From Raja brachyura (taxonomy: Eukaryota): a DNA stretch of 64,000 nt. The stretch is taken from assembly GCA_963514005.1 (NCBI GenBank), contig OY740786.1, positions 67,890,001 to 67,954,000 of the forward strand, read 5' to 3'. A program made the position numbers. Shown here piece after piece: positions 42,001 to 45,000 of the stretch. How positions within the stretch are numbered: the first letter of the stretch is position 1; every line of letters begins with the position of its first letter.

Positions 42001-45000
42001 TGCAAAGTGAAAAATAAACAGTGCAGAATATAGTATTAGAGCCAAGAGATAATGCAGATCTTTTAAAAAGTGCAAGGGTCAGGATTGGGAGATCAGGACT
42101 ACATCCTTAGTTTATGTTAGATCTGTTCAATTGTCTGATAATAGTGCCATTTCCATAGCACCAGATTGAGGAACAGTTTCTTCGCCATGGTTATTCAACT
42201 TCTGAACGTACTTCTCATAAACTAGGTGTGCAATTCCAATTCTCCAACTACCTCATTGCAGCCCTTGCACTTTATTTTTGTCTGCACTTTCTGATGTATT
42301 ATATCTTGCTCTGATTACATTTCTCCTTGCAGTATCTATTGTACTTGTGTATGATTTGATTGTACTCATAAATGGAATGATTTGACTGCGTAGGATGCAA
42401 AAGAAAGTTTAATTTGTTTTGTGGTAACATGCCATAGTAGGTTTCTTTTTTGACAGTTTTTCACTCTTCTTGCTCTTTAATTGATCTCATCTTCTTCAGA
42501 CCAGAGATACAGCACTGAAACAGACCCTTTGGCCCACAGAGACTGTGCTGACCAGTGATCACACCTTACACTAGCACTATCCTACACACTAGGAACTTAC
42601 AAACCTTTGGAGTGTAAGAGGGAAACAGAACTGGCTCCCGGAGAAAACCCACAGGGTCATAGGGAAAACGTACAAATTCCATACAGACAGCACCCATAGT
42701 CAGGATTGAGCCCGGGTCTCTGGCACAGTAAGGCAGAAGCTCTACCGCTGTACCACTGCTCTCCAACTTATTATGAATTTGTTTGAAAATTCTCAATTTA
42801 ATAAATTCAGGAATAGTCCAATCTATAATGTTTCTAGCAGGAACCAATAAAATAAGCAATATTGGATCCAACAGAAATCAGTGTCAAGTGGCAATACATT
42901 CTGCAAAGTGCATGGCTGTCTGGACATTGACTATAGAGACAAGGTACACACAAGGAACTGCAGATGCTGGTGTGACAAAAATACATAAAGTACCAGAGTA
43001 AGTCAGTAAGCATCTCTGGAAAACATTGATAGGCACCATTTTGGCTCGAGATCTTTCTTCGGACTTTAGAAGAGTCCAAACACGAAACATCACCTATCCC
43101 TGTTCTCCAGGAATGATGCCAGACTCACTAACTTTGAGTCTCTAGCACTTTGTGTCTTTTTTGGTCATTGACTATATTAATGCCAAGAAATTCAGAAGAT
43201 ATAAAGAAAGTTGACAGGATATTACTGAGTGGCAATGCATACTCAAAAAGCTGTAGGAAATTGGAGGATCAGCACCTCATATTTCACTTGGGCAGCTTAC
43301 AACCCAGCGGTATGAATATTGATTTCTCTAACTTCAAGTACCCTTGCTTTCCCTCTATCTACATCCCTCCACATCCTCGTTCTACTGTCTTCCTGTTAAA
43401 TGTTACCGCATTGTATGCCGCAATGTCACCTTCACCATAGCTTAAAATGAACCATTTCCTTATTTGTTATCTGCTTTGATCTTTCATTTTCACACCTTAC
43501 CCTTCCACATATCTCTAGTTTCCCTCTCCCTTGACTCTCAGCCTGAAGAAGGGTCTCGACCCGAAACGTCACCCATTCATTCTCTCCAGAGATGCCACCT
43601 GCCCTGCTGTCTTACTTTTCTTGGTAACTTTACATTGAATTCTTGGACTCTGCCTTCTACCCGAGCATTAAATCTTTACCCAGTTATAAGGTTTTTTGGA
43701 TTAATGATAGTAATGTGATACTTCATGTAAAGTTAAAAGCTGCATTTATGAGCTTTATAAGTATGTTCACAAAATAAAAAGCATGAAATTCAAACCTCAA
43801 AATTCAAACATTAAAAAAATATTTTTACCTCCAATAATGTGAACCTTTTCTTACTATACTTGATTTTCTCCTGGATAAGACGCAGCTCTTTGAAATCAGG
43901 AAGATCGGGGAATGGATCCAACCGCCTAATTGCATGGTATAGGTTTTTATTGTCTTGATTAGAAATCACTAGATACTTCAACAACGTAAGGGCCTGGAAG
44001 AATTATAACTATAAATCACTAATTGTTTATATCACAATTAAAATTGAGAATAACAATCACAAAGAATCTTAAAACATTTATAAATCAGAATGGGAATAAT
44101 TATATGCATGATTCTCAGCTCCTACGAAGTTGAACTTTAAAATAACTTGTCCCCTATTTGTATACTCCAGAGATGCTGCCTGACCCACTGAGTTACTCCA
44201 TGTTAATGCATGAGGCGCATTTGGGGGGTCTGAGCCTGTATTCGCTGGAGTTTTGATGGAAGAGCGGGAAATCGCATTGAAACCTACCGAATAATGAAAG
44301 GCCTAGATGGAGTGGATGTGGAGAGGATGTTTCCAGTAATAGGAGAGTCTAGGACCAGAGGGCACAACCTCAGAATAACAGGATGTACATTTAGAATGGA
44401 GATGAGAAGGAATTTCTTTAGCCAGAAGGTGGCGAATCGGAGTCATTGGCACAGACGATGGTGGAGGCCAAGTAATTTGGTATTTTTTTAAAACGGAGAT
44501 TGACAGGTTCTTGATTAGTACAGATGCCAAAGGTTATGGGGAGAAGGCAGAAGAATGGGGTAGACAGGGAAAGATAGATCAGCCATGTTTGAATGGTGGT
44601 GTAGATTTGAAGGACCAAATGGCCTAATTCTGCTCCTATCACTTATGACCTTTTTAATGGCCTAATGCTGCTCTTATGTCTTATGGTCCCTTGACTCCAC
44701 CAATTTACAATTCTTATAGGTAGACGCAAAATTCTGGAGTAACTCAGCGGGACAGGCATCATCTCTGGAGAGAAGGAATGGGTGACGTTTCGGGTCGAGA
44801 CCCCAAAGCAGTACCCATTCCTTCTCTCCAGAGATGCTGCCTGTCCCGCTGAGTTACTCCAGCATTTTGTGTCTAACTTCGATTTAAACACGCATCTGCG
44901 GTTCCTCCCTTACAATTCTAATCGCCGTATCAGAATCCCAGCTTCCTTTGGACTCATAATTAGTGACTTCCTTTCAGCCTTGTCAGTCTGAATCTTGAGA

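What the first reader, a model, noticed from the sequence alone, without database searches (positions are those of the whole stretch)
44705..44919. Penelope tails inserted as single-event palindromic pairs, consistent with both target strands primed from an RNA dimer
Seen: three head-to-head pairs with both 3' tails pointing outward are each enclosed by a single TSD: 9657-10619 (TCATAAGAAAG), 44715-44909 (TTACAATTCT) and 52617-52922 (ATAATATTAATG). Similar pairs without a clear TSD occur at ~3011-3178, 34890-35070, 37590-38120 and 42950-43160. Known: PLEs often show inverted pLTRs, and their minimal hammerheads need to dimerise through the ACGU helix III. Inference: two RNAs held together by the hammerhead dimer could each be reverse-transcribed from the two staggered GIY-YIG nicks, tying ribozyme dimerisation to insertion geometry. 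The arms at 52617-52922 differ visibly from each other, which fits two templates or an old age.
Basis: partly seen in the sequence, partly recalled or inferred. Interest (0 to 1): 0.7.

Follow-up and report, generated by a model that had tools for sequence, protein, structure and literature searches.

The report
Inverted Penelope-like retroelement insertion pairs
These are head-to-head double copies of a hammerhead-carrying Penelope-like retroelement end, each laid down in one insertion event, a known hallmark of this element class rather than a new system.

Summary
44705-44919 holds two inverted 77-nt arms (88% complementary, 7-nt spacer) between an exact 10-bp duplication. The window has 36 significant copies of this repeat and 8 head-to-head abutting pairs, against under 1 expected.

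The repeat carries a minimal hammerhead core. One copy lies just 3' of a GIY-YIG ORF. An inverted 5'-truncated copy inside one duplication, with a 30-40-nt "tail" at one end only, is already described for Penelope-like elements (PMC3846280, PMC8557442).

The RNA-dimer idea is not supported:
- No junction lies at the ACGU.
- One pair lacks the hammerhead in all its pieces.
- In all 8 pairs one arm has the tail and the other lacks it, while solo copies split 8:7. That gives p <= 0.004 under independence.
- Three pairs share an unusual inner end.

This fits published biochemistry: both strands extended, two RT start sites a tail apart (PMC11167929). The simplest reading is that both nicks prime at different start sites, probably on one RNA. 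All pairs are old (12-37% arm divergence), so one versus two RNAs stays untested.

The parts
44705..44714 (.). Left copy of the target-site duplication, TTACAATTCT
   Evidence: family D2. Null fraction 0.007 and 0.004.
44715..44797 (-). Left arm: element copy on the minus strand. It ends at the inner ('short') 3' end near 44718 and has no tail. It keeps helix II and the GAAACGUC part of the hammerhead.
   Evidence: Tail score 14, null fraction 0.93.
44781..44804 (-). Hammerhead remnant in the left arm. Helix II is at 44793-44804 and GAAACGUC at 44784-44791. The predicted cleavage site is between 44784 and 44783. The CUGANGA box is absent.
   Evidence: (exact 12-mer at 44781-44792, minus strand), read directly.
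44795..44801 (.). Centre of the palindrome (7-nt spacer), lying in the loop of hammerhead helix II
   Evidence: (arms end at 44794 and start at 44802).
44799..44878 (+). Right arm body on the plus strand. The stretch between helix II and the cleavage site is scrambled (44805-44813).
44879..44909 (+). 31-nt 'tail', present on the right arm only
   Evidence: 44890-44905; score 48, null fraction 0.0047.
44910..44919 (.). Right copy of the target-site duplication
9646..10630 (.). Pair P2 with an 11-bp duplication. The left arm has a 40-nt tail (9657-9696). The right arm is tail-less and split by an insertion of about 750 bp. The pivot is at the element's usual 5' end.
42921..43176 (.). Pair P5 with a 14-of-15 duplication. 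The left arm has a 41-nt tail (42936-42976) and the right arm is tail-less.
52605..52934 (.). Pair P7 with a 12-bp duplication. The left arm is tail-less and the right arm has a 39-nt tail (52884-52922). The pivot is about 45 nt 5' of the hammerhead. The inner 24 nt are perfectly palindromic (52723-52746 and 52753-52776).
3007..3175 (.). Pair P1, complex: a minus piece with tail (model 48-136), a second minus piece (48-85) and a plus piece (52-95, tail-less). No duplication found.
34898..35073 (.). Pair P3, asymmetric. The left arm is full and tailed. The right arm starts at about model position 62-66 and is tail-less. No duplication found.
37590..38115 (.). Pair P4. The left arm is tailed (with an internal deletion, judged by eye). 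The right arm is tail-less and split by a SINE-like insertion. The pivot is at the usual 5' end.
   Evidence: Right-arm tail score is borderline, 0.054.
56367..56533 (.). Pair P8. A full, tail-less minus copy abuts a plus piece that holds only the tail.
   Evidence: The flank repeat is not significant.
3808..4565 (+). 5'-truncated autonomous copy: a GIY-YIG ORF fragment (3808-4224), then the hammerhead (4458-4485) and the element's 3' end

Best explanation
Each pair is one insertion of the 3' terminal region of a Penelope-like retroelement. That region runs from the hammerhead to the reverse-transcription start sites.

The element's GIY-YIG nuclease nicks both target strands 10-15 bp apart, and both 3' hydroxyls prime cDNA synthesis. 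The two primings are not equivalent. One starts at the outer start site, so that arm carries the 31-41-nt tail. The other starts at the inner start site, so that arm has no tail.

The simplest reading is that both act on the same RNA molecule, with a trailing and a leading enzyme of one protein dimer. Both cDNAs would then stop at the same RNA 5' end. Their 3' ends are joined through a few self-complementary bases or added bases. This gives a head-to-head palindrome with a 0-11-nt spacer inside a single duplication.

Shown here: single-event origin, the one-tail rule, and the junction positions. Taken from published biochemistry: both-strand extension and two start sites. Inferred: one RNA copied twice, and the joining step.
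For: 1. Single events. Four of 8 pairs are enclosed by duplications of 10, 11, 12 and 15 (14 of 15) bp, each with null fraction <=0.007. Head-to-head abutment is 7-8 observed against 0.6-0.9 simulated, with 0 of 20000 simulations reaching it.

2. Each pair has its own junction, so the pairs are not copies of one palindromic master. Pivots are at model positions about 5-8 (three pairs), about 18-20, about 50, and 45 nt upstream of the model start, plus two asymmetric pairs.

3. One tail per pair. In 8 of 8 pairs one arm is tailed and the other tail-less (sequences). This holds for 4 of 4 duplication-verified pairs. Of the 15 solo copies scored, 8 are tailed and 7 tail-less. Independent choice therefore gives at most 0.5^8 = 0.004, or 0.06 for the four verified pairs alone.

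4. Tail lengths of 31, 40, 39 and 41 nt match the published 30-40-bp tail. That tail equals the stretch between the two RT start sites (PMC11167929, passages).

5. The same study reports cleavage and extension of both strands and a predicted protein dimer.

6. Shared unusual inner ends. In P1 all three pieces end at model 48-52. In P6 both arms end in helix II. In P7 both end 45 nt upstream, with 24 of 24 inner bases matching.

7. Four of the 6 symmetric pivots sit on self-complementary element sequence. Three are at TCAGnCTGA at the usual 5' end, and one is at the helix II stem.

8. P8 has body in one arm only and tail in the other only, so neither arm can be a copy of the other.
Against: - The sample is small: 8 pairs in one 64-kb window, only 4 with a significant duplication.
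- Two tail calls are soft. P4 left was judged by eye, and P4 right is borderline at 0.054.
- P8, the only pair that directly excludes a fold-back copy, lacks a significant duplication (0.11).
- Arms are 12-37% diverged. Partners are never each other's nearest relative (0 of 16 arm queries, ranks 2-20). Shared derived bases are few: 0, 0, 2, 2 and 3. One RNA, two RNAs from one source, and a fold-back therefore cannot be separated by sequence.
- In vitro, no difference in start site between top and bottom strand was seen in bulk. This does not contradict the model but gives it no direct support.
- Copying one RNA twice needs strand displacement, which has not been shown for this enzyme.
- In the focal pair the helix II loop orientation and the intact core belong to the tail-less arm. 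No version of the model predicts this.
Confidence: 0.55

Rival explanations
1. Two RNA molecules held together by the hammerhead dimer (ACGU helix III) are each reverse-transcribed from one of the two nicks.
For: - Both-strand extension is reported in vitro (PMC11167929).
- Minimal hammerheads of these elements are thought to act as dimers (PMC4209133, passages).
- The ACGU is present in the family.
- Three pairs (P2, P4, P5) join two copies that each reach the usual 5' end. Two full RNAs would also give this.
- At a few columns one arm of P5 and P7 shares a state with other copies. By my rough estimate this is within chance.
Against: - 0 of 8 junctions lie at the ACGU.
- The P1 pieces contain no hammerhead sequence at all.
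- The focal pair lacks the CUGANGA box in both arms.
- 8 of 8 pairs are discordant for the tail, where two equivalent templates predict about half.
- Shared unusual inner ends in P1, P6 and P7 are unlikely for two separate molecules.
- Hammerhead catalytic mutants do not change insertion in vitro, and no reads start or end at the cleavage site.
- Arms are of the same subfamily in every assessable pair, with no arm-specific subfamily markers beyond chance.
Confidence: 0.1
2. Fold-back (self-priming). One cDNA made from one nick snaps back on itself and is copied. The second arm is then a copy of the first.
For: - Palindromes at the inverted junction led Arkhipova et al. to propose self-priming (PMC3846280, Discussion passage).
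- Six of 8 pairs are symmetric about a short 0-11-nt spacer.
- The focal pivot is in the helix II hairpin.
- The inner 24 nt of P7 are perfectly palindromic.
- Arm differences are private to each arm.
Against: - A faithful copy should reproduce the outer end, giving both arms tailed or both tail-less. I observed 0 of 8 concordant pairs, and in particular no tail-less/tail-less pair although about half of solo copies are tail-less.
- In P8 each arm holds sequence that the other lacks.
- The P1 structure needs an extra jump.
- In the focal pair the loop orientation belongs to the tail-less arm.
Confidence: 0.2
3. Two independent insertions, the second landing next to or in the first (a target hot spot). 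Alternatively, a later DNA-level inverted duplication.
For: - Penelope-like nucleases are reported to cut in or near their own sequence (PMC11167929, passages).
- Four of 8 pairs lack a significant enclosing duplication.
Against: - Four pairs have one duplication around both arms and none around either arm alone.
- Only the head-to-head class is enriched. Tail-to-tail and tandem classes are not.
- Arms of one pair are always of the same subfamily.
- A DNA-level duplication would copy the outer end, but the ends are always discordant.
Confidence: 0.05
4. A DNA transposon of MITE or foldback type with terminal inverted repeats.
For: The structure is palindromic and flanked by a short direct repeat.
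Against: - Every pair has a different junction and arm length.
- The outer ends differ within a pair.
- Duplication length varies from 10 to 15 bp.
- Most copies (22 pieces) are solo, one-armed and 5'-truncated with their own duplications.
- One copy continues into a GIY-YIG ORF.
Confidence: 0.01

Closest known systems
Inverted pseudo-LTR architecture of endonuclease-containing Penelope-like elements, e.g. Pen2a_Av of Adineta vaga (PMC3846280). General description in PMC8557442, its Fig. 2 legend and PMC8969392.
   Same: - A 5'-truncated copy in inverted, head-to-head orientation, enclosed with its partner in one 8-10-bp duplication.
- A 30-40-bp tail at only one end.
- Palindromic junctions.
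- A hammerhead in the repeated region.
- Heavy 5' truncation.
   Different: Here most events are very short, about 45-180 nt per arm, with no ORF between the arms. No direct pseudo-LTR pair is seen apart from one head-to-tail joint in P1. Duplications are somewhat longer (10-15 bp).
Poseidon element PAc of Anolis carolinensis, studied in vitro (PMC11167929)
   Same: - Layout of hammerhead followed about 85-130 nt later by two alternative 3' ends a tail-length apart.
- AT-rich targets: 37 of 48 duplication bases in the four verified pairs are A or T, against about 60% in the window.
- Both-strand cleavage and extension would give the observed geometry.
   Different: In the passages I read, that paper does not link both-strand extension to inverted copies. 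It does not report that the two strands of one event use different start sites. The tail here is not predicted to be a stable stem-loop.
Twin priming of LINE-1
   Same: The second nicked strand is used as a primer on the element RNA, giving an inverted segment inside one duplication.
   Different: In twin priming the inverted part comes from a more 5' part of the same RNA, and the two parts do not overlap. Here both arms cover the same sequence, and each has its own 3' end.
Animal non-LTR retrozymes and minimal-hammerhead repeats (PMC7229834 seen as a listing only; bioRxiv 10.64898/2026.07.22.740005 and PMC4209133 as passages)
   Same: Short non-coding hammerhead-bearing repeats derived from Penelope-like pseudo-LTRs. 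'Dual min-HHRs close to each other but in opposite strands' were noted in PMC4209133.
   Different: Retrozymes are head-to-tail tandem units delimited by cleavage sites. Here no unit starts at the cleavage site and no tandem arrays are seen.

Membership tests
Penelope-like elements (endonuclease-containing) | C-terminal GIY-YIG endonuclease ORF upstream of the 3' repeat | tested here: met
   ORF 3808-4224 (+) gives Pfam GIY-YIG at E 0.0096 and 16.6 bits, below the 22.6 cut-off. Twenty of the 30 best named Atlas clusters are GIY-YIG, with scores 0.96-0.97. The hammerhead at 4458-4485 and the repeat's 3' end follow on the same strand. There is no PDB sequence hit. The support is moderate, not strong.
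Penelope-like elements (endonuclease-containing) | Telomerase-like reverse transcriptase in the same ORF | not tested
   The GIY-YIG fragment is 5'-truncated and no RT is contiguous with it. Three RVT_1 ORFs elsewhere in the window were not typed and are not next to the repeat.
Penelope-like elements (endonuclease-containing) | Hammerhead ribozyme motif in the repeated terminal region | tested here: met
   The pattern CTGANGA-N10-18-GAAACGTC gives 5 exact hits against 0.01 expected, all inside copies. The core motif itself is recalled knowledge. Rfam gives no hammerhead hit at gathering score or at E<=1. This is as expected for a form without helix III, but it means no curated model confirms the motif.
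Penelope-like elements (endonuclease-containing) | Optional 30-40-bp tail, i.e. two alternative 3' ends | tested here: met
   Tails of 31, 40, 39 and 41 nt in the four verified pairs. Eight tailed and 7 tail-less among the 15 solo copies scored.
Penelope-like elements (endonuclease-containing) | Inverted 5'-truncated copy adjoining, inside one target-site duplication | tested here: met
   Eight head-to-head pairs, 4 with a significant single duplication.
Penelope-like elements (endonuclease-containing) | Partial tandem (direct pseudo-LTR) arrangement | tested here: inconclusive
   There is only one head-to-tail joint, 3007-3092 with 3094-3131. No full-length element lies in the window.
LINE-1-type twin priming | The inverted segment derives from a more 5' region and does not overlap the direct segment | tested here: not met
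   Arms overlap over 32-95 aligned columns, and each has its own 3' end.
   0 of 8 junctions lie at the ACGU. The P1 pieces start at model 48-52, beyond the hammerhead. The focal pair lacks CUGANGA in both arms.
   Eight of 8 pairs are discordant, against about 50% expected.
MITE / foldback DNA transposon | Unit-length copies with fixed termini and fixed duplication length | tested here: not met
   Junctions, arm lengths and duplication lengths (10-15 bp) all vary.

The most novel reading that the evidence does not exclude
In one insertion event the two nicked target strands prime on a single RNA at the two different reverse-transcription start sites, through one protein dimer with a leading and a trailing polymerase. 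This would explain three long-unexplained hallmarks of Penelope-like elements together: the inverted copy, the tail at only one end, and the palindromic junction. It needs no ribozyme dimer.
Probability: 0.4. Interest if true: 0.6.

Novelty: already known. Interest (0 to 1): 0.35.

Why it matters
The transposition cycle of Penelope-like elements is still called undefined in the field (PMC8557442, passages). Their tandem and inverted insertions also break assemblies and annotation pipelines.

The architecture seen here is not new. The window does give one clean, testable rule: one tailed and one tail-less arm per inverted pair, with inner ends often shared. This rule connects the two in-vitro findings of 2024, both-strand extension and two start sites, with the genomic structures.

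If the rule holds genome-wide, it would favour a concerted two-strand, two-site priming step. It would argue against both the fold-back model and the ribozyme-dimer model.

Tried and rejected
- **Rfam.** There was no hammerhead at gathering score or at E<=1. The 10 sub-threshold hits are hairpin look-alikes (viral CRE, miRNA families) caused by the palindromes.
- **Tail as a stem-loop.** Five tails folded with z-scores from +1.63 to -0.47. There is no stable hairpin, so I dropped the idea.
- **Nearest-relative test of the arms**. The partner was nearest in 0 of 16 queries. This is uninformative, because all copies radiate from consensus-like sources.
- **Shared derived bases**. Counts of 0-3 per pair are no higher than for non-partner pairs (up to 6).
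- **Possible sub-subfamily markers.** These separated the arms of P5 and P7 (column 41 and a few others). By a rough estimate of my own they are within chance, so I make no claim.
- **Suspected degenerate tail on the right arm of P1.** Score 15, null fraction 0.80. Rejected.
- **First duplication scan**. It used imprecise boundaries and missed two true duplications. I repeated it.
- **PDB sequence search of the GIY-YIG ORF.** No hit.
- **Longer-protein search**. It gave one hit, an uncharacterised protein named for Leucoraja erinacea, 73% identity.
- **Inverted-repeat scan of 21800-23700.** Nothing found.
- **Literature.**
  - 'Penelope' + 'head-to-head' + 'target-primed reverse transcription' gave 0 papers.
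  - 'Penelope' + 'twin priming' gave 3 papers, none on this by title and abstract.
  - 'Penelope-like' + 'inverted' + 'both strands' + 'reverse transcription' gave 5 papers, of which only PMC11167929 is relevant.
- **Papers not held**: Pyatkov 2004, Arkhipova 2006, and Evgen'ev and Arkhipova 2005. Earlier proposals for the inverted copies may be there.
- **Not read.** The supplements of PMC11167929 (Figs S1, S2) were not opened.
- **Collections.** No other copy of this family outside the window could be examined.
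Full report
**What is at the site**

Positions 44705-44714 and 44910-44919 are an exact 10-bp direct repeat, 12 of 13 if extended by 3 nt. Between them lie two inverted arms, 44718-44794 and 44802-44878. They are 77 nt long, 88% complementary and 7 nt apart. The 3' ends of both arms point outward.

The arms belong to a repeat that is very common in the window:
- An 18-nt core motif has 25 matches at up to 3 mismatches, against 0.02 expected.
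- A profile built from 17 copies finds 42 hits at E<=10, of which 36 have E<=4.5e-5.

**What the repeat is**

The copies share, in this order, three features:
- A CUGANGA box, a GC-rich hairpin and GAAACGUC. This is a minimal type-I hammerhead core whose helix III is only the palindrome ACGU. The core motif is recalled knowledge.
- About 65 nt of conserved sequence.
- One of two alternative 3' ends, 31-41 nt apart.

The exact core pattern occurs 5 times, against 0.01 expected. Rfam reports no hammerhead at gathering score or at E<=1.

One copy (4451-4565, +) lies 234 nt downstream of an ORF fragment (3808-4224, +). The evidence that this ORF is a GIY-YIG nuclease is moderate:
- Pfam gives E 0.0096, below the curated cut-off.
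- Twenty of the 30 best named Atlas clusters are GIY-YIG.
- There is no PDB sequence hit.

Its only longer named homologue is an uncharacterised protein named for Leucoraja erinacea. No reverse transcriptase is contiguous with it.

Solo copies are 5'-truncated and have their own duplications of 9-15 bp. Together these features place the repeat with the 3' terminal region of Penelope-like elements.

**Are the pairs real and single events?**

Eight head-to-head abutting pairs exist. Random placement of the 38 pieces gives a mean of 0.62 (gap <=15) or 0.91 (gap <=70). None of 20000 simulations reaches the observed 7 or 8. Tail-to-tail and tandem neighbours are not enriched.

Four pairs are enclosed by a duplication that beats random position pairs:

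| Pair | Duplication | Null fraction |
|---|---|---|
| P2 | 11 of 11 | 0.0007 |
| P6 (focal) | 10 of 10 | 0.004 |
| P7 | 12 of 12 | 0.0007 |

P1, P3 and P4 (0.33) and P8 (0.11) show none. Each pair has its own junction, so the pairs are not copies of one palindromic master.

**What is already known**

I read passages only, through term searches.
- **Arkhipova et al. 2013 (PMC3846280).** They describe an inverted pseudo-LTR completing an insert flanked by one 9-bp duplication. [quoted passage not shown] They interpret this as self-priming.
- **Craig et al. [quoted passage not shown] A 30-40-bp tail is often at only one end. The cause is 'still undefined'.
- **Goubert et al. 2022 (PMC8969392).** They list inverted pLTRs among the known peculiarities.
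- **Cervera and de la Pena 2014 (PMC4209133).** They found minimal hammerheads in pseudo-LTRs that probably act as dimers. They noted dual motifs on opposite strands 100-700 bp apart. They proposed circular RNA templates for the tandem form, not for the inverted form.
- **Frangieh et al. 2024 (PMC11167929).**
  - The purified protein cleaves and extends both strands and is predicted to be a dimer.
  - Reverse transcription starts at two adjacent internal sites, and the tail is the sequence between them.
  - No start-site difference between strands was seen.
  - Hammerhead catalytic mutants do not change insertion.

The architecture is therefore known. In the passages I saw, nobody ties it to an RNA dimer.

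*Junction positions* (sequences):
- P2, P4 and P5 pivot at the usual 5' end of short copies, a palindromic TCAGnCTGA just 5' of the CUGANGA box.
- P6 pivots in the helix II loop. Neither arm keeps CUGANGA, and only the left arm keeps ACGU.
- P7 pivots 45 nt upstream of the hammerhead.
- In P1 all three pieces end at model 48-52, beyond the hammerhead.
- P3 and P8 are asymmetric.
- None pivots at the ACGU.

*Outer ends.* Every pair has one tailed and one tail-less arm:
- Left arm tailed in P1-P5, right arm tailed in P6-P8.
- P4 left was judged by eye, and P4 right is borderline at 0.054.
- Of the 15 solo copies scored, 8 are tailed and 7 tail-less. Four further solo copies were not scored because they lack the motif used as anchor, and one is cut short.
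- Independent assortment gives at most 0.5^8 = 0.004, or 0.06 for the four verified pairs alone.

*Inner ends.* P1, P6 and P7 share an unusual inner end between arms.

*Arm sequences*:
- Arms are of the same subfamily wherever this can be judged.
- Differences are private to each arm: 13 of 87, 7 of 58, 21 of 95, 34 of 91 and 8 of 40 columns differ. Shared derived bases number 0, 0, 2, 2 and 3.
- Partners are never nearest relatives (0 of 16 queries).
- This fits identical arms that decayed. Because all copies are old and consensus-like, it cannot separate one RNA from two.

**Reading**

Two equivalent RNAs predict about half discordant ends and unrelated inner ends. A fold-back copy predicts concordant ends. 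Two primings on one RNA, one at each start site, predict exactly what is seen.

P8 has body in one arm and tail in the other, which also argues against a fold-back. It lacks a significant duplication, however. I therefore favour concerted priming of both nicks at different start sites, probably on one RNA, with microhomology joining of the cDNA ends. Confidence is moderate, because the sample is 8 old pairs.

**What stayed open**
- No other sequence of this genome could be searched.
- Three older papers are not held.
- The supplements of PMC11167929 were not opened.

Noticed in passing
window 56080-56150: A solo insertion consisting of the tail only (about 45 nt, minus strand) between an exact 13-bp duplication (null fraction 0.0003). 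Its 5' end coincides with the inner 3'-end site of tail-less copies.
   Followed up: partly
window, several copies (e.g. 37479, 39361, 20372, 62450): Many solo copies begin within a few bases of the CUGANGA box, at a palindromic TCAGnCTGA, and not at the hammerhead cleavage site. This may be a preferred RNA 5' end or a strong stop. No copy clearly starts at the cleavage site.
   Followed up: partly
window 9858-10605: An unrelated insertion of about 750 bp splits the right arm of the 9657-10619 pair. It has a GC-rich interior and an A-rich end. I did not identify it.
   Followed up: no
window 37751-38069: An insertion of about 320 bp with a tRNA-like head and an A-rich end (SINE-like, judged by eye) splits the right arm of the 37590-38115 pair.
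   Followed up: no
window 26213-26257: A near-perfect 45-nt hairpin palindrome, unrelated to the repeat. It gives sub-threshold miRNA-like Rfam hits.
   Followed up: no
window 4455-4500, 37436-37481, 43542-43587: The minimum-energy fold of the hammerhead region pairs the CUGAAGA and helix II 5' strand with the sequence just 3' of the cleavage site. This is an alternative, non-ribozyme fold.
   Followed up: no
family-wide: The heptamer CCAGCAT occurs twice in tailed copies, about 12-16 nt before the inner 3' end and about 20-25 nt before the outer one. Each start site seems to have its own copy of a short signal.
   Followed up: no
window 22559-23453: Two ORF pieces with the Pfam ALKBH8_N-like domain lie back to back on opposite strands, next to an RVT_1 fragment. 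No nucleotide-level inverted repeat of 30 nt or more was found.
   Followed up: partly
window 53719-54324: An ORF fragment with a DDE_3 transposase domain (E 7e-13). It looks like a DNA-transposon remnant.
   Followed up: no
window 44618-44685: Two 30-nt direct repeats, 87% alike and 38 nt apart, lie just upstream of the focal site. They appear to belong to another repeat family.
   Followed up: no
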